Notes: a model not told the origin generated them from the letters alone. Counted from the stretch's first letter, positions 12,497 to 25,733 are shown. The stretch: 64,000 nucleotides of DNA from Patescibacteria group bacterium (GCA_018825365.1 JAHJEV010000003.1:108670-172669), one strand, 5' to 3'. Translations and numbers: made by a program.

Positions 12497-12572
12497 AGCG
12501 GGGTAGCCTAGTTAGGTTCAAGGCGTCTCAGTTTAAATGAGAAAATCTCAGGTTCAAATCCTGACCCCGCTA
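12497..12572 (+). tRNA. class I tRNA with anticodon UUA (ochre-suppressor-like); A1-U72, A73, no encoded CCA
   Basis: Hand-folded, every stem Watson-Crick: acceptor agcgggg/ccccgct, D gcct/aggc, anticodon stem tctca/tgaga with loop GTTTAAA (positions 34-36 = TTA), 5-nt variable loop, T arm tcagg-TTCAAAT-cctga. It is followed by ttagc, not CCA. Confidence 0.7.
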
Positions 12573-18322: not shown

Positions 18323-18673
18323 ATGTTTAAAATAGTAAAAACAGTTTTTATGTTAATAATGATTCTGGTCGGTTTAGTTATTATTTTTGCGTCTTATCAT
18401 CTATATAAAGGTTTTAAGTCAGGTGATATTACATCTTATTTTATGAAGTACGCGGCAAAGTCAATTGTAGACAGGACCAAATTATCTCCTACACAGGTGG
18501 AATATTTGGATGCTGGGGACTTTGAAAGTTTAGTGAAAGATATAGAACAAAACATTACTCAGGAACAAATCGATTGTTTCACTAATAGTGTTGGGGACGA
18601 GCGAGCAAAAGAGTTAGTAATTGACAAAAACCCCACACCGCAAGAAATATTGAAGCTTTCTAAGTGTCTTTAG
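18323..18673 (+). CDS. hypothetical small membrane-anchored protein
   Basis: N-terminal TM helix followed by a charged soluble tail. No recognisable domain. Confidence 0.4.
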   Translation: MFKIVKTVFMLIMILVGLVIIFASYHLYKGFKSGDITSYFMKYAAKSIVDRTKLSPTQVEYLDAGDFESLVKDIEQNITQEQIDCFTNSVGDERAKELVIDKNPTPQEILKLSKCL

Positions 18674-18694
18674 CTGTAAAATGGATTTCTTTTC

Positions 18695-18780
18695 TGGTGG
18701 GAAGGGTGGGGTTCGAACCCACGAAGGCTAAAGCCAACGGTTTTACAGACCGCTCCATTTGACCACTTTGGTACCTTCCC
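18695..18780 (-). tRNA. tRNA-Tyr (anticodon GTA), class II with long variable arm
   Basis: Minus-strand fold: acceptor gggaagg/ccttccc, anticodon stem gcggt/accgt with loop CTGTAAA, long variable arm, T arm gtggg-TTCGAAC-cccac, A73 and encoded CCA. Confidence 0.85.
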
Positions 18781-18920
18781 ATAATTAAAAGACTGAAAGG
18801 ATGATAGCACAAAAAAACTACCGGAGAATGTGCTTGTTCTGCGGCCCTGGAAATAGTATGAGATAAGATCCCATTTAGTACTTTACTAATTTGTGTCCTT
18901 GCCATATTCTTAAACGCGTT

Positions 18921-18990
18921 TAACATGCTCATTTTTCCCCTGATAACCCGACTACCATTATTAAAATCCCGAGCATTAAAAAACCACGTT
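18921..18990 (-). repeat. diverged duplicate of the pyrH 3' end (gene fragment; att-like direct repeat of 24879..24965)
   Basis: Minus-strand translation WFFNARDFNNGSRVIRGK matches VVVFDVRDFNNVSRVIKGEK at the real pyrH C-terminus. There is a 16-nt identical core cattattaaaatcccg, and some differences are synonymous, indicating a homologous gene fragment. Confidence 0.6.
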
Positions 18991-19003
18991 TACTACTGGT
19001 AAA

Positions 19004-19291
19004 TTAGTGCTTAGGGGTTTCCAAGCTCAATTTCTTGAGTAGTTCAAGAGTAACTCTGACTGATGGGTTTTCGTCATTTATAAAATGAACTCGATTGCCA
19101 AATCGGTCGATCAGCTGAGTAACGAATTCATCCGCCCAGGAGGGTGTAAAAGTGATTACACCTTCAAAATCAAGTTCCAACATTTCAGTTTCAAGTACGC
19201 CCTGCAATAGTGGCGCTATTGCGGCTAACGCCTCACGCCCGTCTTGTCTTGATGTAAGAATGTTTCCGAATTTTTTAAGTTCTATTTTCAT
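19004..19291 (-). CDS. DUF4325/STAS-like (anti-sigma-factor-antagonist-like) small protein
   Basis: 95 aa with a STAS-like alpha/beta pattern (…LELDFEGVITFTPSWADEF…). It lies 8 nt downstream of, and is apparently co-transcribed with, the GHKL ATPase gene. Confidence 0.5.
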   Translation of the reverse strand: MKIELKKFGNILTSRQDGREALAAIAPLLQGVLETEMLELDFEGVITFTPSWADEFVTQLIDRFGNRVHFINDENPSVRVTLELLKKLSLETPKH

Positions 19292-19298
19292 ATTTTAC

Positions 19299-20030
19299 TT
19301 AAAACCTTATTAATGCTAAACAGCCACTGTAATATAGATCAGTTTTACTTATCTTCAACTCTTTAACCTCATTAGTAATAGAAACTTTAGCGTTCCCACT
19401 GTAAAAGTCGAGTTCAATGGCCCTATTTAATACTACTTCCAGCACGAATTTAAGTCCATTCCCTCTTGCTTCAGGAGATCTGCCTGATATCACTTCAGTA
19501 AATGCAATGCGCAAAGCGTCCTCATCGTTTTTAATATCAATCACTCTTTTTAGAGTTCTTAAAATACCCTGTCCCCTGTCCGCCAGGGCTATCTGTCTTT
19601 TGTTTGTATCATACGAAAAGAGTATACCTGGGATGTCTGGCCAATTTCCTAGATTATGGTCAAAGGAGTTATTTCCTATTTCTCCTACTATGGCAACAAT
19701 AAGCGGATAATACTCTTTTAGATCTGGTAGCTTTTCCAGAGCACTTTGCAGCTTTGAAAGTCTTCCTTTAAACTCTGCGCTGGTTGGACAGTAAAATGCA
19801 CTTTCTGGTTCTTTGGGGGTAGCCAACATCCACTCCATGGCTGTTGCAAAAATATTTTGTTTGTATATCTCAAGATCCAGTTGCACATAGTATCTGTGAC
19901 CGCCTTCAGTTCTTTTAGCCGGAAATTTACCGCTCCTGTCCCATCTTCTAAGGGTGGTGGTGGTTACATCTAAATATTCCGCGGCTTCGCCTATACTTAG
20001 TCTTTTAGTGTTTTCCATATACTTATACAA
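19299..20030 (-). CDS. fusion of MerR/excisionase-type HTH and GHKL (histidine-kinase-like, RsbW/SpoIIAB-type) ATPase
   Basis: N-terminal HTH (LSIGEAAEYLDVTTTTLRRWDRSGKFPAKRTEGGHRYY). The C-terminal GHKL Bergerat fold has an N-box (GEIGNNSFDHN), a G1 box (DRGQGI) and a G2 box (GNGLKFV). Confidence 0.6.
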   Translation of the reverse strand: MYKYMENTKRLSIGEAAEYLDVTTTTLRRWDRSGKFPAKRTEGGHRYYVQLDLEIYKQNIFATAMEWMLATPKEPESAFYCPTSAEFKGRLSKLQSALEKLPDLKEYYPLIVAIVGEIGNNSFDHNLGNWPDIPGILFSYDTNKRQIALADRGQGILRTLKRVIDIKNDEDALRIAFTEVISGRSPEARGNGLKFVLEVVLNRAIELDFYSGNAKVSITNEVKELKISKTDLYYSGCLALIRF

Positions 20031-20258
20031 CTTTTATATCATATTTCCTAAACTTGTACAACTTGTGTGTAAACTTATACATTCGGTAACACCCATCAAG
20101 CCACAACAACAAAAATCGAGGTTCAGATTTAAAAATATCAAAGGAAGCCTTAACAAGCGGCTACAGGGGGTTTGAGGCTTTGTAGCCGCATAAATGTCCT
20201 GTCTGACTGACTGCATGGGAATTTGTGGGAACTTCTTACAACACTGATTTAAAAATAC

Positions 20259-20708
20259 TTAGGAAAGCTTATTAACTAGAACGACTAGTGCGGTTCTGGA
20301 TTCTATAACAAGATCATATTTTAAGGCTTCCTTTACTCTGAGCCATTTGAAGTCGCTATGCTCAGATGATATAGCTACTTCTCCACCAACACTTTTTGAT
20401 AAACCCACGAGAATAACGTATGGTAGACCTTTATATTTCCCAGAAGAAATAATTTCGCTACGCCAGTAAGCTATTTTATCTGTCGGAATTACAACTAAAC
20501 CTGTTTCCTCAAGCACCTCTCTTTCTAATGCGTTAGAAATATCTTGCCCTATATCTAGCTTTCCTCCAGGTAGCTCCCATTTGTTAGGCATGTATGAGTC
20601 GCTAGGAGAACGCTTTATTATCAAAATAAGACCATCTTCGTTTTGAACAATCGCTCGAATTACAAGTACTACTTTCGGTCGTTTTTGTCTATCGGATTTA
20701 ATGTTCAT
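20259..20708 (-). CDS. Nudix hydrolase
   Basis: Nudix box GGKLDIGQDISNALEREVLEETGL (Gx5Ex7REuxEExGu). Confidence 0.8.
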   Translation of the reverse strand: MNIKSDRQKRPKVVLVIRAIVQNEDGLILIIKRSPSDSYMPNKWELPGGKLDIGQDISNALEREVLEETGLVVIPTDKIAYWRSEIISSGKYKGLPYVILVGLSKSVGGEVAISSEHSDFKWLRVKEALKYDLVIESRTALVVLVNKLS

Positions 20709-20771
20709 AATTTATTATATTTTACCGCATTTCTGATTAGGGAAGTGTTACTACATTTTATGTGAAAACCA

Positions 20772-20812
20772 TGGCTGGCTAGGTGGGAAGTTGTTGGAAC
20801 TTTTAAGTTAGA
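20772..20812 (+). repeat. intergenic repeat family member R1 (tggctggct...gggaa...ggaact)
   Basis: Shares tggctggct-N-gggaa-N-(t)tcgaact/ttggaact with R2 (21714) and R3 (24731). Confidence 0.4.
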
Positions 20813-20823
20813 TCCTTCAGGTG

Positions 20824-21639
20824 TTAATCGAATTTTATAAAGTAAGCAGTTTTTTCCTTATAGAAGCCAAATTTTTGGGTTGTTTCTGCTATGTATTTGT
20901 AAGTATCGGATGTAAATGGGCTGTCTTTTAATTTTTTAATAAATTCCTGGTTTTGTAAAAGCTGAATAAACCCATCAGTGTATACACAGACTAAGTCACC
21001 TTTTTTAAGTTCTACCTCTCCGGTTTGAAGATATTGTTCAAATCCCTCTCTACCGTCTATCACTCCATATCCATATTCTTTACCATCCACAATAACTTGA
21101 TGGTTTCTAATATCTTTTCTCCAGTGTTTCCTTGTTTCGATCTTTCCCCAATCAAAGTTTCCATCTAGATATTTAGCAGATTGTTCAACATAAGACTTAA
21201 GCATTGGGTGATCCACCAAGTCATTACCAAAGACGGATATAAAGCAATCATCCAAAACACCATATATTAACCTGTTTTCCTTAATCCATATTGTTGAGGT
21301 AGTAGCAGCTCCAATAGTAAAGCCATTATTTTCTTTATTCTTATAGAGAGGGCTTTTACAATTAAACTTTGCAACCTCTTTATTAGCTTCTAAATAGGCT
21401 TGTTTGATTGAGTCGGTCGAGAAATTCTTACTCTCGAGGTTATGTACAACTTGATTACATATAATTCTAGCTACCTCATATGAGTCAGAGGGTACGGGGT
21501 AAAGTGTTGGATCCGTTGGGTCGTGTGTTACCCCATCTGCAACTACAAAAATGTTCTCTTTATTTGAATGTAAATAGCAGTCTTCTTGAGGTGCATATGG
21601 GTGTTTTAAATTATTTTCATGGTACAGAATAAACTTCAT
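20824..21639 (-). CDS. hypothetical protein, possibly a PP2C/SpoIIE-like phosphatase fold
   Basis: Weak PP2C-like motifs (...QEDCY..., FVVADGVTHD, VCVYTDGFIQLL). 271 aa. Low confidence. Confidence 0.35.
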   Translation of the reverse strand: MKFILYHENNLKHPYAPQEDCYLHSNKENIFVVADGVTHDPTDPTLYPVPSDSYEVARIICNQVVHNLESKNFSTDSIKQAYLEANKEVAKFNCKSPLYKNKENNGFTIGAATTSTIWIKENRLIYGVLDDCFISVFGNDLVDHPMLKSYVEQSAKYLDGNFDWGKIETRKHWRKDIRNHQVIVDGKEYGYGVIDGREGFEQYLQTGEVELKKGDLVCVYTDGFIQLLQNQEFIKKLKDSPFTSDTYKYIAETTQKFGFYKEKTAYFIKFD

Positions 21640-21713
21640 GTATTTATTTTATCACCAGAGGTTGTATTTTATCGTAGGGTGATGATTTATATTGCTATGA
21701 CAACAAAAACCTT

Positions 21714-21800
21714 GGCTGGCCGTAAGGGAACAAGCTCGAACTGTGGTTTTGGTCTAAATCCTGGCTTTTAATCCAGTGGTAGGGGCCTAATAATCCTGTT
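21714..21800 (+). repeat. intergenic repeat family member R2
   Basis: ttggctggccgtaagggaacaagctcgaactgtggttttggt...taataatcctg aligns with R3 over the 5' 40 nt and the 3' aataatcctg block. Confidence 0.45.
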
Positions 21801-21913
21801 TGAAACCTTCACAAACTGACAATGTGCCTATAAACCGATTCTGATAGAAGACAGGATGCTACAAGTAAAGAACATTCGATGCTTACATACTTCCACTATG
21901 CTAAAATTTAGCT

Positions 21914-22969
21914 ATGGGCAGACTAGAAATAGGTAGCAGGTGGAAGTTTGAGATAGTCGCGTTTCTGATAACTGGTCTTTTATTGTATAAGGTTGATTTT
22001 AGTATAGACACTGATTCTTATTTCTATTTTAAAAAGCATGATATATATTACGACTATCAAGCAGCCAAACAATTGCAACACGGAGAAAACCCATACAATA
22101 GAATATTAGAAGGTAACATGATTGAAAATGATAAATACGCTACTCAGCTGCCTCTTTATTTTTATTTTCTTGCCCTAATAGGGAAAATTTCTCAAAATAA
22201 CTTTGACGTGTTTTTGGAAAACTTTAGACTCGTTTTATTTTGGTTCCATTTAGCGGGGGGCGTTTTTATGTATCTCCTTTTTCGCCGTATCAATAAACTT
22301 TTTGTAGGATATTGTGCTGCAGTTTTTTATATGTTTAATGTATGGAGTTTAAATAGTTTTATGTATCTTAAACAAGATATGATAGCCATAGCCTTACTTG
22401 TTTTATCTTTTTACTTCTTCAGAAATAAAACTTATCGCTGGATCTCATACGTATTATTTGGGCTATCGCTTGGAATAAAACATATAGGAATTTTTGCTTT
22501 TCCAATATATCTTACACCAATTCTTTTTAAAGAAGATTCTTTTAAGCGCTTTGGTCTCAATATGTTACTGTTGTTCTCTACGATACTTATACCAGCAGCT
22601 CCTCTTTTAATTGATAATTCGTTAAGTTTTGTAAATTCCATGCTGTTTAGTCTTACGCGGAGTCCTCGCAGCTCTGAAATAATTTATGGGTACAACGAGT
22701 TGCTTGTAAAATACAACCCCTCTTTTAATAAAGGCACTTTATTTCAGCAGTTACTCCCAAGGCTGCCCCTTTTTATTGCCTCTATCCTGTGCTTACTAAT
22801 GCTCTTACTAAGAAAGATACCTTTATCTGTGTATCTTTTTATTTCAATACTGGTATTTGCTATATTTAACCCTGTAATTTTCCCTCAATATATAACATGG
22901 GTTACCCCAATGGCCCTTATTTCTCTAGTTGATTACACAGACCACGTTCAACTACAAAAACGTGTTTAA
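21914..22969 (+). CDS. polytopic integral membrane protein (possible GT-C/DUF2029-like glycosyltransferase)
   Basis: 351 aa with 9 or more hydrophobic helices. No soluble domain. Confidence 0.45.
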   Translation: MGRLEIGSRWKFEIVAFLITGLLLYKVDFSIDTDSYFYFKKHDIYYDYQAAKQLQHGENPYNRILEGNMIENDKYATQLPLYFYFLALIGKISQNNFDVFLENFRLVLFWFHLAGGVFMYLLFRRINKLFVGYCAAVFYMFNVWSLNSFMYLKQDMIAIALLVLSFYFFRNKTYRWISYVLFGLSLGIKHIGIFAFPIYLTPILFKEDSFKRFGLNMLLLFSTILIPAAPLLIDNSLSFVNSMLFSLTRSPRSSEIIYGYNELLVKYNPSFNKGTLFQQLLPRLPLFIASILCLLMLLLRKIPLSVYLFISILVFAIFNPVIFPQYITWVTPMALISLVDYTDHVQLQKRV

Positions 22970-23162
22970 ACAAATGTCTCCCCCAGCCCAAGATCCTAAA
23001 AGCCTGAACTAAAAAGATTTTCAGATTTATACTACAACCCTTTTATAGTAGTAGAAATTTAAATAATCCTCGCCGCATAATTATTGTAATATTGTATTTC
23101 TTGACAAACCACTATAAAAGGGTGCTATTATTTTGTAGCACAGAAAAGATACTTTTACTTAA

Positions 23163-23849
23163 ATGTTTAAAAATACGGGAAATACAAGTAGTAAAAAGAC
23201 AAGGGAGATTAGCTTAAAAACTGTTTTTACGTATATTTTCGGTGCTTTATTCTTGATCTTCTTCCTCTTTTCTGGAGTCGTAACAATTAAAGCGGGACAG
23301 TTGGTTATTGGTGTTCTTTATTTTATTTTAGCTGTCCTAGTCCTTGTACCTCACCACCACTTGAGAGTTACCAAAACTTTAAAATTTGTAATTTTTGTCG
23401 TGCTTTTCTTCGTACTCGCCTACTTTAGCGGTCGTAGCACTCCCCCTGTTGCGCAAAAGTATGAATATTTTGCATTAGGGGAAATATTTAACATTGCATT
23501 TGGAAATAACACATTTTCAATGGTAGTTAGAGAAGCGAAACATGATGCTAAAATTAGTATCTCTGGAAAAGAAGTAACTACATCTGGTTACTTTATTATT
23601 GTTACAGGAGATATCGTAAATCTTGGCTCGGAAGCTGTAGATTTTAAATTTAGCGTAACCCCTGAATTAAAGGATAAACAAGATAGACGTTATACCTTAT
23701 ATGGAACAGGTCTAGCTGTAGGAAAATTGCAACCCGGTGTGGCTAAAGAAGTTTCCTATGTTTTTGAAATTCCTAAAGATGCAACGGGATTAGAATTTAT
23801 TGTTAGTGATAAAACCGATGTTGCTAAATCGGTAGATTTAAAAAGATAA
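23163..23849 (+). CDS. membrane-anchored protein with a C-terminal beta-sandwich (DUF4352-like) domain
   Basis: Two N-terminal TM helices, then the pattern FIIVTGDIVNLGSEAVDF...YVFEIPKDATGLEFIV, which is typical of DUF4352-type domains. Confidence 0.4.
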   Translation: MFKNTGNTSSKKTREISLKTVFTYIFGALFLIFFLFSGVVTIKAGQLVIGVLYFILAVLVLVPHHHLRVTKTLKFVIFVVLFFVLAYFSGRSTPPVAQKYEYFALGEIFNIAFGNNTFSMVVREAKHDAKISISGKEVTTSGYFIIVTGDIVNLGSEAVDFKFSVTPELKDKQDRRYTLYGTGLAVGKLQPGVAKEVSYVFEIPKDATGLEFIVSDKTDVAKSVDLKR

Positions 23850-23852
23850 TTA

Positions 23853-23888
23853 CGGTGAGGTTTTTTAAATTTTACCTCACCGTTTTTA
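23853..23888. terminator. bidirectional intrinsic terminator between convergent genes
   Basis: cggtgaggt-tttttaaatttt-acctcaccg has a perfect 9-bp stem flanked by T/A runs on both sides. Confidence 0.6.
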
Positions 23889-23904
23889 AGTAAACAAGTA
23901 AAGA

Positions 23905-24579
23905 CTACGTTCCAAACTGTCTGTCACCCGCGTCTCCCAGCCCAGGCAAAATGTAGCCTTTTGGATATTTACTTTGTCCATCGCTTAGCTTTCTGTCAAC
24001 CGTGGCGACAACAATACGAACATCTGGATGAGTATCCGATAGAGCTTTTATTCCCTCGGGCGCTGCTATCACCCCCAGATATACTATCCTCTTAGCTCCC
24101 CTTTCTTTTAAACGAGAAATGGTGGCGATTGCCGAGCCTCCTGTTGCAAGCATAGGATCAGGTACTAACCAAACGAAATTTTCACACTCCATAGGAATTT
24201 TACTACGTCCCCATACAGGCTGAAGAGTTTCCTCATCTCTGTACATGTCAATATGGAAAATCTTGGCTTCGGGAAGGATTTCTTGTATGGGAGCTACCAT
24301 TCCCAGAGCTGCCCGGAGTATTGTTGCTACCGCAACTTCTTCTGTGAAAACATACCCTACTGTCTCTTCTAGAGGTGTAGACACTTGTGTAGATTTTACT
24401 TTTAGATCAGAAAGAGCGGCATACACCAAGGGGTACGTTAATCGCCCAAGAATTGTACGAAACTGCTCTGATTTAGTATGCACATCCCTCAGTTCCGTCA
24501 GCCAAACCTTAATCAGTGCGTTTGAGTCCAACACAATCAAGCTTGAACATTCCATGATACTATCTCCTTTTTTTAGCAA
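23905..24579 (-). CDS. upp: uracil phosphoribosyltransferase
   Basis: PRPP-binding motif VWLVPDPMLATGGSA and a UPRTase C-terminal GYILPGLGDAGDR motif. The real start is probably the internal Met (MECSS...). Confidence 0.85.
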   Translation of the reverse strand: MLKKGDSIMECSSLIVLDSNALIKVWLTELRDVHTKSEQFRTILGRLTYPLVYAALSDLKVKSTQVSTPLEETVGYVFTEEVAVATILRAALGMVAPIQEILPEAKIFHIDMYRDEETLQPVWGRSKIPMECENFVWLVPDPMLATGGSAIATISRLKERGAKRIVYLGVIAAPEGIKALSDTHPDVRIVVATVDRKLSDGQSKYPKGYILPGLGDAGDRQFGT

Positions 24580-24730
24580 GATGCTTTTTTGAACAGACCA
24601 ACATTGATTCTAAGTATTTATTAGAAAGTGTCAATGATATTTAATATTATTAAAAATTAATGGAAGTATACTTCAGTCTAGTTCACTATTGGATTAGTTG
24701 ATTTTATGCTGTTGTGACAATGTAAATCCT

Positions 24731-24862
24731 ATGGCTGGCTATTAGGGAACAAGTTCGAACTGTTTGTAGCTGTTAAAGGAAAATTCGACGATTTCAGGTT
24801 CATGACGTAACATTGCACTCTAGAAGGTTTTGGTACTTATAACTAGCTGCAAAATAATCCTG
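24731..24862 (+). repeat. intergenic repeat family member R3
   Basis: atggctggctattagggaacaagttcgaactgt...ggttttggt...aaaataatcctg contains the perfect 10-nt palindrome agttcgaact. Confidence 0.45.
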
Positions 24863-24878
24863 GAGAGAATAATATTAT

Positions 24879-25592
24879 TTATGGTGTGATTAGTGTACCT
24901 ACTTTTTCTCCTTTAATCACACGACTAACATTATTAAAATCCCGTACGTCAAAAACAACAACCGGAATATGCTGGGATTGACAAAGAGCAAAGGCCGTAT
25001 TGTCCATCACCATCAAACCTCTAACCAATGCTTCCTGAAACGTAAGTTGCGGAAACTTTTTAGCATTTGTGTTTGTCTTCGGATCACTATCATAAACCCC
25101 ATCCACATTAGTTCCTTTCAAGAGAATATCAGCATTTATTTCTGCTGCTTTTAGTGCGGCTGCAGAGTCGGTGGTGAAAAAAGGGCTGCCGGTACCACCC
25201 GCCAGTATTAAAACGTAGCCTTTTTCTAAATGATGCACAGCTCGCAAACGAATAAAAGGTTCGCAAGCCTGATCCAGCCTTAAAGATGACATCACCCGTG
25301 AGGTAACTCCTAGGACGTTTAATTCCTGTTGTAATGCCAAGGCGTTCATAATCGTCCCCAGCATACCAATGTAATCCAACTGCGCCGGATCAGCTGTTCC
25401 CTTCTGATGATCCCGTCCCCTAAAGAGATTACCACCACCGTTGACTATCGCCAGCTGAATACCAGCTTCATCGATAAGCTTCTTTACGCCAAGTGCAATT
25501 AATCCTATTGCTTTGAAATCCAAACCCACCTTTTTTTCTCCTCCAAACACCTCTCCGCTTAGTTTTAACAGGACACGCTTGTATTCTGACAT
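24879..25592 (-). CDS. pyrH: UMP kinase
   Basis: N-terminus RVLLKLSGEVFGG and the amino-acid-kinase family fold. 237 aa. Confidence 0.9.
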   Translation of the reverse strand: MSEYKRVLLKLSGEVFGGEKKVGLDFKAIGLIALGVKKLIDEAGIQLAIVNGGGNLFRGRDHQKGTADPAQLDYIGMLGTIMNALALQQELNVLGVTSRVMSSLRLDQACEPFIRLRAVHHLEKGYVLILAGGTGSPFFTTDSAAALKAAEINADILLKGTNVDGVYDSDPKTNTNAKKFPQLTFQEALVRGLMVMDNTAFALCQSQHIPVVVFDVRDFNNVSRVIKGEKVGTLITP

Positions 25593-25733
25593 TGTTTAGA
25601 ATTATAAACCTTTTAACAGGTAAGGTGGTAAGTGCTTATCGGGGATGGTACAATGCAAATAATTAAGTTTGGTAGAGGTAGTTTGACCAAAACACTCCTT
25701 TGTGTAGGAGAGACGTAGGTAAAATCCTGCCCC

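What the first reader, a model, noticed from the sequence alone, without database searches (positions are those of the whole stretch)
18905..24965. Candidate 5.9-kb inserted island bracketed by direct repeats of the pyrH 3' end
The last roughly 24 codons of pyrH (24879-24965; VVVFDVRDFNNVSRVIKGEK) recur as a diverged fragment at 18921-18990 (WFFNARDFNNGSRVIRGK). The two are in the same orientation, share a 16-nt identical core cattattaaaatcccg, and differ partly by synonymous changes, which points to homology rather than chance. This is the footprint expected when an integrative element inserts into the 3' end of a gene carrying its own copy of the target 3' end. The bracketed segment (18996-24878) contains an excisionase-type HTH fused to a GHKL ATPase, a DUF4325 protein, Nudix, a PP2C-like protein, two membrane proteins, upp, and all three copies of an intergenic repeat family. 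It sits 125 nt from tRNA-Tyr. No integrase is present, so it may be degraded, satellite-like, or mobilised in trans.
Basis: seen in the sequence. Interest (0 to 1): 0.7.

Follow-up and report, generated by a model that had tools for sequence, protein, structure and literature searches.

The report
Leftover pyrH fragment beside tRNA-Tyr
The repeat is real, but it is a decayed leftover of an earlier copy of the essential gene pyrH, left by ordinary recombination at an unstable spot next to a tRNA gene; it is not the scar of a self-inserting mobile island.

Summary
Window 18932-18988 is a pyrH-derived fragment in the same orientation as the intact pyrH (24879-25592). It matches 40/51 nt ungapped, in frame, with blastn E 4e-7.

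The integrative-island reading is only partly supported. The closest sister genome (L004) has an intact pyrH 1.3 kb from the same tRNA-Tyr and lacks the 6-kb block, so the locus is polymorphic.

Several results argue against an integrating element:
- No recombinase lies within 10 kb.
- The 16-nt "core" falls on the most conserved pyrH codons and is not beyond chance on its own.
- The fragment covers only codons ~211-230. It lacks the last 7 codons and the stop, carries two frameshifts, and abuts a second relic, the 5' end of a GCS2-family gene.
- It matches L004's pyrH (49/57) better than the window's own (42/53).
- pyrH carries excess synonymous divergence against every relative, which points to repeated recombination.
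- The enclosed genes are lineage-typical chromosomal genes. The HTH-GHKL/DUF4325 pair has more than 4400 Patescibacteria homologues, and the block core is syntenic elsewhere (L150).
- Near-identical strains are mosaics here.

Best reading: a relic of a displaced pyrH at a recombination hotspot. This is ordinary genome erosion, of modest interest.

The parts
18932..18988 (-). pyrH relic: codons ~211-230 of a former pyrH. It has two 1-nt indels and no start or stop codon.
   Evidence: Matches the window's pyrH at 40/51 ungapped and L004's pyrH at 49/57, E 9e-10. It is the only pyrH fragment in the window. It occurs only in this lineage among the close loci.
18956..18971 (.). 16-nt run identical to 24929-24944, covering the codons for RDFNN.
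   Evidence: The same codons are near-identical in all 11 pyrH alleles compared. As an exact 16-mer it is not beyond chance.
18834..18932 (-). Second relic: the first ~33 codons (MSMLNAFKNMARTQISKV...AEQ) of a GCS2-family ligase gene. It begins directly after the pyrH relic.
   Evidence: Aligns from residue 1 with the 406-aa GCS2 (PF04107) gene, which sits intact directly upstream of tRNA-Tyr in L091/L005. BLOSUM62 score is 65, against 23.6 +/- 3.6 and a maximum of 54 in 5000 shuffles.
18781..18861 (-). 80-nt block upstream of tRNA-Tyr that is conserved with L004. Synteny with L004 ends at 18861.
   Evidence: Alignment has 1 mismatch and 1 indel, then similarity is lost abruptly. Collinearity with L004 continues from here down to window 12030.
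18695..18780 (-). tRNA-Tyr (GTA)
   Evidence: ARAGORN; Rfam tRNA 59.6 bits.
19004..19291 (-). DUF4325 (STAS-like) protein. Its stop codon lies 15 nt from the pyrH relic.
   Evidence: Pfam PF14213, E 2.6e-8. This gene always follows the HTH-GHKL gene in relatives. Homology to L149/L150 stops at the stop codon.
19299..20030 (-). MerR/BldC-type HTH fused to a GHKL-fold domain
   Evidence: Pfam MerR, E 2.8e-13. The AF2 model has pLDDT 86.5, and its Foldseek top hits are Hsp90/TRAP1 and GyrB/ParE ATPase domains plus BldC/RacA for the HTH. More than 4400 homologues occur across Patescibacteria.
20259..20708 (-). Nudix hydrolase
   Evidence: Pfam PF00293, E 9e-18. Absent, together with the PP2C gene, from the 99.5%-identical strain L148.
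20824..21639 (-). PP2C-like protein
   Evidence: Pfam PP2C_2, E 1.6e-6.
21914..22969 (+).
   Evidence: No Pfam or NCBIfam match. 87% identical in L150, which has the same neighbours.
23163..23849 (+). DUF4352 protein
   Evidence: Pfam PF11611, E 4.9e-7.
23905..24579 (-). upp (uracil phosphoribosyltransferase)
   Evidence: Pfam and TIGR01091. Interrupted by an IS in strain L148.
24879..25592 (-). Present, intact pyrH (UMP kinase)
   Evidence: TIGR02075 scores 282.6 bits over its full length. dS to L004's pyrH is 0.66, against 0.24-0.29 for the backbone. It also holds a SNP cluster against strain L084.
24720..24764 (-). Promoter-region motif GTTC-N7-TTCCC-N5-GCCAGCCA upstream of upp. Further copies lie at 21701-21745 and 20760-20804, with a weak copy at 20192-20236.
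   Evidence: The same motif lies upstream of pyrH in L004 and of recR in L141, and also occurs in L150. It is therefore a lineage-wide regulatory motif, not an island signature.

Best explanation
The 57-nt sequence at 18932-18988 is a non-functional relic of an earlier pyrH copy. That copy sat just upstream of a GCS2-family gene and tRNA-Tyr, which is the position where the sister genome L004 still has an intact pyrH.

In the window's lineage a stretch of ordinary chromosomal DNA became joined to the old pyrH at about codon 211, 15 nt after the DUF4325 stop codon. This DNA carries its own complete pyrH followed by upp, DUF4352, a 351-aa protein of unassigned family, PP2C-like, Nudix, HTH-GHKL and DUF4325 genes. 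The old gene was then redundant. Deletions eroded it from both sides, as they did the neighbouring GCS2 gene.

The join was made by general recombination, not by a site-specific recombinase. The mechanism I favour (inferred, about 0.35-0.4 on its own) is import of DNA from a related strain, with a homologous crossover on the pyrH-proximal side and an illegitimate join on the other. This is homology-facilitated illegitimate recombination.

The locus is a recombination hotspot. pyrH is the conserved anchor next to a variable block, so it repeatedly picks up divergent alleles.

Shown: the relic, its position, its decay, the polymorphism, the excess pyrH divergence and the strain mosaics. Inferred: the order of events and the type of recombination.
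For: - The relic is homologous and decayed: E 4e-7 to 9e-10, two frameshifts, and the last 7 codons and stop missing.
- It sits at the position of L004's pyrH. L004 has intact pyrH, one glycosyltransferase gene and the same tRNA-Tyr, and is collinear from the tRNA onward for more than 7 kb.
- The relic matches L004's allele best of 11 alleles: score 39 (49/57), against 30 (42/53) for the window's own pyrH. At the 9 sites where the two alleles differ, it agrees with L004 at 7 and with the window at 1.
- The adjoining GCS2 5' relic shows serial deletions at this spot.
- pyrH dS exceeds that of its neighbours in every comparison: 0.66 against 0.24-0.29 (L004), 1.14 against 0.475 for upp (L146), and 0.137 against 0.000 for hisS (L084). 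In L084, 31 of 49 SNPs across 10 kb fall in 24750-25600.
- Strain L148 (99.5-99.8% identical) has PP2C, Nudix and the HTH N-terminus swapped for 447 nt of other sequence. One junction lies exactly at the end of a motif copy. L148 also has an IS in upp.
- The block genes are chromosomal and conserved. The DUF4352, 351-aa protein, HTH-GHKL and DUF4325 genes are syntenic in L150 in another context, and the HTH-GHKL family has more than 4400 members.
- No recombinase, no composition shift, no match to phages, plasmids or viral contigs, and no RNA structure or terminator in the relic.
- HFIR as a known process: PMC3240628.
Against: - No donor or clean pre-event site is available. L004 carries a glycosyltransferase gene between pyrH and the tRNA, and a different gene upstream of pyrH, so at least one further event is needed in L004.
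- pyrH dS against L004 is uniformly high, so no crossover point is visible inside pyrH. The homologous anchor, if there was one, is not located.
- The preference of the relic for L004's allele rests on 57 nt. The count is 7 against 1 informative sites under the best alignment, but 5 against 2 under an alternative gap placement.
- Because pyrH alleles are overwritten often, allele affinity cannot separate import from internal duplication.
- Competence genes were not examined.
Confidence: 0.6

Rival explanations
1. Internal relocation of pyrH. The block (upp ... DUF4325) always lay upstream of the old pyrH. A duplicate pyrH arose or was inserted upstream of upp, and the original copy next to tRNA-Tyr then decayed to the relic. 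No block insertion took place.
For: In relatives, pyrimidine-related genes lie upstream of pyrH: upp, a 139-aa gene, then pyrH in L146, and a Nudix-like gene then pyrH in L085. Between the window and L004, pyrH behaves as a minimal unit, with homology running only from -25 to the stop codon. pyrH alleles are overwritten frequently, so the relic's affinity to L004's allele does not exclude this.
Against: No relative shows DUF4325 directly followed by pyrH; four other HTH-GHKL/DUF4325 contexts have other neighbours. The relic is closer to L004's allele than to the window's own pyrH. This model needs both a duplication and later allele replacement.
Confidence: 0.2
2. An integrative element, now without its integrase or mobilised in trans, inserted by site-specific recombination into the 3' end of pyrH and supplied a replacement 3' end. 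The relic is attR and the present pyrH end is attL.
For: There are direct repeats in the same orientation with a 16-nt identical run. The block is absent from L004 at this locus. The site lies next to a tRNA gene. The block contains an excisionase-family HTH (TIGR01764 at 28.5 bits, just under its cutoff of 28.8).
Against: - No recombinase within 10 kb.
- The HTH protein belongs to a Patescibacteria family of more than 4400 members that is always paired with DUF4325; it is not an excisionase.
- The core is the conserved RDFNN codons and is not significant alone.
- The relic lacks the gene's last 25 nt and is fused to another gene relic.
- The whole pyrH, not only its end, is divergent.
- The block core is syntenic chromosomal DNA in L150.
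- The intergenic motif occurs outside the block in relatives.
- No phage, plasmid or viral matches, and no composition shift.
Confidence: 0.1
3. Chance similarity in AT-rich DNA.
For: The exact 16-mer alone is within chance expectation.
Against: The extended in-frame match has E 4e-7 to the window's pyrH and 9e-10 to L004's. Scores are 30-39 against a maximum of 24 in 1000 shuffles. The fragment matches 9 of the 10 other pyrH alleles at the same gene positions, weakly for the most distant, L090.
Confidence: 0.01

Closest known systems
Genomic islands integrated at the 3' end of a tRNA or protein gene by a tyrosine recombinase, leaving a displaced duplicate of the gene end (for example SGI1 at trmE; from my own knowledge)
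   Same: Direct repeats of a gene end flank a strain-variable block. The target gene remains intact. A tRNA gene lies nearby.
   Different: There is no recombinase. The repeat core is not distinctive. The displaced end is truncated and fused to another relic. The cargo is lineage-typical chromosomal genes. The whole target gene, not only its end, is the divergent copy.
Homology-facilitated illegitimate recombination during natural transformation (PMC3240628)
   Same: It predicts one homologous end and one illegitimate end. It also predicts foreign DNA inserted next to an anchor gene and leftover recipient sequence at the illegitimate junction. No dedicated recombinase is needed.
   Different: The described cases involve small linear DNA. 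Here at least 6.7 kb is involved, and the anchor and donor are not identified.
Core genes flanking hypervariable loci that show excess diversity through recombination (for example gnd beside the E. coli O-antigen cluster; from my own knowledge)
   Same: pyrH shows 2-3 times the synonymous divergence of neighbouring genes, and a SNP cluster between 99.5%-identical strains, while bordering a variable block.
   Different: Here the anchor gene was itself duplicated or displaced, leaving a relic. The variable block encodes regulatory and salvage functions, not surface polysaccharide genes.
Partner-switching modules (GHKL-type kinase, STAS-domain protein and PP2C phosphatase, as in RsbW/RsbV/RsbU; from my own knowledge)
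   Same: The block encodes a GHKL-fold protein, a STAS-like DUF4325 protein and a PP2C-like protein.
   Different: The GHKL domain is fused to a MerR/BldC HTH. No sigma factor is present. The PP2C gene is dispensable in strain L148. Neither kinase activity nor interaction between the proteins was tested.

Membership tests
Site-specific integrative element / genomic island | Encodes, or lies next to, an integrase or recombinase | tested here: not met
   Pfam, NCBIfam and PADLOC scans of the block proteins, plus the Pfam table for all called genes within 10 kb on either side, show none.
Site-specific integrative element / genomic island | attL/attR: a distinctive identical core at both boundaries | tested here: inconclusive
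   A 16-nt identical run exists. It coincides with the most conserved pyrH codons in all alleles, and exact 16-mers occur at chance frequency (4 observed, 1.9 expected).
Site-specific integrative element / genomic island | The displaced gene end is complete and contiguous with the native downstream DNA | tested here: not met
   The relic covers codons ~211-230 only. The last 7 codons and stop are absent, and the next base starts a GCS2 gene relic.
Site-specific integrative element / genomic island | Precise empty site in a close relative | tested here: inconclusive
   L004 lacks the block but has a glycosyltransferase gene between pyrH and tRNA-Tyr, and different DNA upstream of pyrH.
Site-specific integrative element / genomic island | The same element occurs elsewhere (other sites, other genomes, phages or plasmids), or has foreign composition | tested here: not met
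   No viral, phage or plasmid match. GC is 0.33-0.41 inside the block and 0.33-0.44 in the flanks. The block core is conserved as chromosomal synteny in L150.
Gene relic at a recombination/deletion junction | Significant homology to a functional gene, but truncated, frameshifted and without a start or stop codon | tested here: met
Gene relic at a recombination/deletion junction | An intact gene at the equivalent position in a close relative | tested here: met
   L004 has pyrH on the same side of the same tRNA-Tyr, in the same orientation, 1.3 kb away.
Gene relic at a recombination/deletion junction | No sign of a retained function (RNA structure, terminator, conservation) | tested here: met
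   Fold z-score is -0.28, no terminator was found, and there is no Rfam hit other than the tRNA. The relic is absent from L004.
Homology-facilitated illegitimate recombination product | One junction within homology to the recipient, the other at no homology or microhomology | not testable with these tools
   This needs donor and pre-event recipient sequences. Only the illegitimate-looking junction (19003/18988) is visible, and no low-dS segment marks a crossover within pyrH.
Homology-facilitated illegitimate recombination product | The organism is naturally transformable (has a DNA-uptake machinery) | not tested
   Competence genes were not searched for in the window or the genome.

The most novel reading that the evidence does not exclude
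The pyrH to tRNA-Tyr interval may be a dedicated, repeatedly re-used exchange site in WWE3-type Patescibacteria. There, an essential gene moves as a minimal promoter-to-stop unit, and whole gene blocks are swapped between strains without any recombinase. Alternatively, the block could be an integrase-less island that targets pyrH and is mobilised in trans.
Probability: 0.12. Interest if true: 0.55.

Novelty: new member of a known kind. Interest (0 to 1): 0.25.

Why it matters
The finding shows how an essential single-copy gene (pyrH) can be displaced and replaced in a reduced Patescibacteria genome without loss of function. Two adjacent gene relics and strain-level mosaics record the process. 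It is also a caution for island prediction: direct repeats of a gene end next to a tRNA are not enough to call an integrative element. The biology is standard genome erosion and recombination, so the value is mainly descriptive. Two side products may be more useful than the relic itself. One is the conserved promoter-region motif. The other is the widespread HTH-GHKL/DUF4325 pair.

Tried and rejected
- More distant relatives were sought through the lineage-specific 116-aa neighbour of tRNA-Tyr. Synteny is lost at 54-74% identity, so this was uninformative, except for showing rpsB-tsf-frr without pyrH in L141.
- I looked for orthologues of L004's pyrH neighbours in the window's genome by 90% cluster look-up. 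Both are singletons, so no reciprocal junction could be traced.
- The viral contigs pattern scan for the pyrH end and blastn of the block against phages and plasmids found nothing.
- Rfam on 17.5-26.5 kb found only the tRNA.
- The RNA fold and terminator scan of the relic region found nothing.
- PADLOC gave only an HTH-level hit (mad1), a weak DrmA hit (E 6e-4) and a Nudix family hit. This is no evidence for a defence system.
- I considered an IMEX/Xer-dif type insertion because of the AT-rich core. I did not pursue it, since the core is explained by codon conservation.
- I considered a replication terminus, because GC skew changes sign near 18 kb. The sign follows gene orientation.
- I first read the pyrH dS excess against L004 as a single xenologous replacement. 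I dropped that reading after the same excess appeared against L146 and L084, which points to recurrent recombination.


Full report
**Source and setting.** The window is part of contig JAHJCK010000002.1 of MAG GCA_018813105.1, a Patescibacteria group bacterium. More distant homologues of a lineage-specific neighbour gene are annotated as candidate division WWE3. On the minus strand the region reads hisS, pyrH (24879-25592), upp, two plus-strand genes (DUF4352 and a 351-aa protein of unassigned family), PP2C-like, Nudix, HTH-GHKL, DUF4325, a 223-nt spacer, then tRNA-Tyr (18695-18780). A 116-aa gene and a P-type ATPase follow on the other strand.

**Checking the observation.** The repeat is real. 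Window 18932-18982 matches 24905-24955 at 40/51 nt without gaps. blastn of the pyrH end against the whole window gives E 4e-7, with the next hit at 0.06. The local score is 30, against 12.8 +/- 1.9 and a maximum of 24 for shuffles. The exact 16-mer (18956-18971 and 24929-24944) is not remarkable alone: the window has four exact direct 16-mers, and simulated windows average 1.9 with a maximum of 5. The 16-mer covers the codons for RDFNN, which are near-identical in all eleven pyrH alleles I collected. No other pyrH fragment exists in the window. Among 22 close loci, only this lineage carries the fragment.

**The fragment is not a complete gene end.** It corresponds to pyrH codons ~211-230. The last seven codons (VGTLITP) and the stop are well conserved at the nucleotide level in the clade, yet they are not recognisable in the fragment. 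Against the best-matching allele, the fragment carries two single-base indels.

**A second relic follows directly.** After GGGGAAAAA comes ATGAGCATG..., and the next ~33 codons (MSMLNAFKNMARTQISKV...AEQ) align from residue 1 with a 406-aa GCS2-family gene (PF04107). That gene is intact directly upstream of tandem tRNA-Tyr genes in L091/L005. The BLOSUM62 score is 65, against 23.6 +/- 3.6 and a maximum of 54 in 5000 shuffles. The spacer between DUF4325 and tRNA-Tyr is therefore a patchwork of two gene relics. It has no predicted RNA structure (z -0.28), no terminator and no Rfam match.

**Comparison with relatives.** Scans with pyrH recovered the same strain (L001-L003) and two 99.5%-identical strains (L084, L148). 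They also recovered one sister genome (L004, CAZLHE010000003.1) and more distant lineages.

L004 is collinear with the window from 80 nt upstream of tRNA-Tyr down to window 12030, at 91-93.6% nt identity. On the other side of that 80-nt block, L004 has a 375-aa MGDG-synthase-like glycosyltransferase on the opposite strand. An intact pyrH follows, in the same orientation as in the window, 1.3 kb from the tRNA. None of the seven block genes is present in L004's locus, and there is no pyrH fragment next to the tRNA. The locus is therefore polymorphic, and a pyrH at this side of tRNA-Tyr is shared.

L004 is not a clean empty site. Homology around pyrH runs only from 25 nt upstream of the ATG to the stop codon. 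Upstream of it lies a 2687-aa gene instead of hisS. Both L004-specific neighbours are singletons at the 90% cluster level.

**Whose pyrH is the relic?** Under one scoring scheme, the relic matches L004's allele best of eleven: score 39 (49/57), against 30 (42/53) for the window's own pyrH and 13-32 for the others. At the nine sites where the window and L004 alleles differ, the relic agrees with L004 at seven and with the window at one. An alternative gap placement gives five against two. This is suggestive, not decisive, support for the relic being the positional orthologue of L004's pyrH.

**pyrH is a recombination hotspot.**
- Window against L004: synonymous divergence is 0.66 for pyrH, uniform along the gene. 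It is 0.24, 0.28 and 0.29 for three backbone genes, and 0.16-0.36 in ATPase sub-windows of pyrH size.
- Window against L146: 1.14 for pyrH against 0.475 for upp.
- Window against L084: 0.137 for pyrH against 0.000 for the adjacent 1389-nt hisS.
- In L084, 31 of the 49 differences across 10 kb fall between 24750 and 25600, and the contig ends at 24690.

An intrinsically higher rate cannot give 24 differences against none, so divergent pyrH alleles are being recombined in repeatedly. This weakens any inference from allele affinity. It fits pyrH acting as the conserved anchor beside a variable block.

**The block is chromosomal and itself mosaic.** Strain L148 carries the relic and 99.5-99.8% identical flanks. 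Its window segment 19815-21712 (PP2C, Nudix and the HTH N-terminus) is replaced by 447 nt of other sequence, which includes a divergent HTH N-terminus. The left junction falls exactly at the end of a copy of the intergenic motif. L148 also has a 1171-nt IS256-family insertion sequence with 24-nt inverted repeats inside upp, and a second copy starting near window 12489.

A relative at ~86% amino-acid identity (L150) has the DUF4352, 351-aa protein, HTH-GHKL and DUF4325 genes in the same order but in a different context, without pyrH or tRNA-Tyr. The HTH-GHKL protein has more than 4400 homologues across Patescibacteria at 53-87% identity among the best 120 listed, each followed by a DUF4325 gene where context was seen. 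Its model (pLDDT 86.5) matches Hsp90/TRAP1 and GyrB/ParE ATPase domains and the BldC/RacA HTH.

In other relatives upp (L146) or a Nudix-like gene (L085) lies upstream of pyrH. In L141, rpsB-tsf-frr are adjacent without pyrH. In this lineage pyrH has therefore left the rpsB-tsf-pyrH-frr operon that is usual in bacteria (my own knowledge), and its neighbourhood differs in each lineage sampled.

**The intergenic repeat family.** The motif GTTC-N7-TTCCC-N5-GCCAGCCA, followed by a conserved AT-rich stretch, lies upstream of upp, PP2C and Nudix, and weakly upstream of the HTH-GHKL gene. It occurs nowhere else in the 64 kb. It also lies upstream of pyrH in L004 and of recR in L141, and occurs in L150. 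It is a lineage-wide promoter-region motif, probably an operator. It is not an island signature, but it does serve as a recombination junction in L148.

**Against an integrative element.**
- No recombinase is in the block or within 10 kb.
- GC content is unremarkable.
- There are no matches in viral contigs, phages or plasmids.
- The tRNA lies with its 5' end towards the block, the opposite of what 3'-end tRNA targeting would give.
- The displaced gene end is truncated on both sides.

**Most likely history.** The ancestor of the window and L004 had pyrH, the GCS2 gene and tRNA-Tyr in that order. The GCS2 body was lost before the two split, because part of its relic lies in the shared 80-nt block. 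In the window's lineage, DNA carrying a complete pyrH plus the block became joined to the old pyrH at about codon 211. The redundant old copy was then trimmed by deletion.

I favour import from a related strain by one-sided homologous recombination with an illegitimate far end (HFIR; PMC3240628). This explains three things: the direct orientation and closeness of the two pyrH sequences, the lack of a recombinase, and the ordinary gene content.

Internal duplication or relocation of pyrH is a serious rival, because relatives place upp or Nudix upstream of pyrH. The data in hand cannot separate the two.

**Verdict.** This is a new example of a known kind of feature: a gene relic at a recombination-prone, tRNA-adjacent variable locus. 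Interest is modest.

Noticed in passing
window 18834-18932 (- strand): A relic of the first ~33 codons of a GCS2-family ligase gene, directly abutting the pyrH relic. The gene is intact upstream of tandem tRNA-Tyr genes in L091/L005 (4512-5732). Part of the relic lies in the 80-nt block shared with L004. The 90-aa ORF 18660-18932, called as a gene in a Logan assembly (L002), is this relic read through the tRNA gene.
   Followed up: yes
window 12497-12572 (+): A well-formed tRNA (Rfam 65.5 bits) whose anticodon loop GUUUAAA gives anticodon UUA. That would read the stop codon UAA, and ARAGORN calls it 'tRNA-Stop'. It is identical in strain L148. L004 has a different tRNA at the corresponding place. 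Many genes here end in TAA, so its role is unclear.
   Followed up: partly
window 24720-24764, 21701-21745, 20760-20804, 20192-20236; L004 8869-8886; L141 8693-8710; L150 1224-1241: A conserved promoter-region motif, GTTC-N7-TTCCC-N5-GCCAGCCA, lies upstream of upp, PP2C, Nudix and HTH-GHKL here, of pyrH in L004 and of recR in L141. It is a candidate operator of a small regulon that includes nucleotide-salvage and repair genes.
   Followed up: partly
L148 699-1869 (window ~24445-24455) and L148 12388-12420 (window ~12489): A 1171-nt IS256-family insertion sequence (Transposase_mut, 24-nt inverted repeats) interrupts upp in a 99.8%-identical strain. A second copy starts beside the unusual tRNA. 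Neither copy is in the window.
   Followed up: partly
window 19815-21712 vs L148 4613-5059: A strain-level replacement: PP2C, Nudix and the first ~72 codons of the HTH-GHKL gene are exchanged for 447 nt carrying a divergent HTH N-terminus. One junction lies exactly at the end of a motif copy.
   Followed up: yes
window 24750-25600 vs L084: 31 of the 49 differences between two 99.5%-identical strains cluster in pyrH and its 3' flank, while the adjacent hisS is 100% identical. The L084 contig ends at window 24690.
   Followed up: yes
window 19004-20030: An HTH-GHKL protein paired with a STAS-like DUF4325 protein. The family has more than 4400 members and is highly conserved across Patescibacteria (53-87% identity among the best 120 hits listed), with no described function. 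Together with the nearby PP2C-like gene it resembles a partner-switching module.
   Followed up: partly
L141 15123-17089: In a relative, rpsB, tsf and frr are adjacent with no pyrH between tsf and frr. The lineage has therefore moved pyrH out of the usual bacterial rpsB-tsf-pyrH-frr operon (my own knowledge), and pyrH has a different neighbourhood in each of about nine lineages sampled.
   Followed up: partly
L005/L091 5797-5879 and 6023-6108: Two tandem tRNA-Tyr(GTA) genes lie about 4 kb upstream of pyrH in a related lineage. pyrH and tRNA-Tyr are thus linked there too, but in the opposite order.
   Followed up: no
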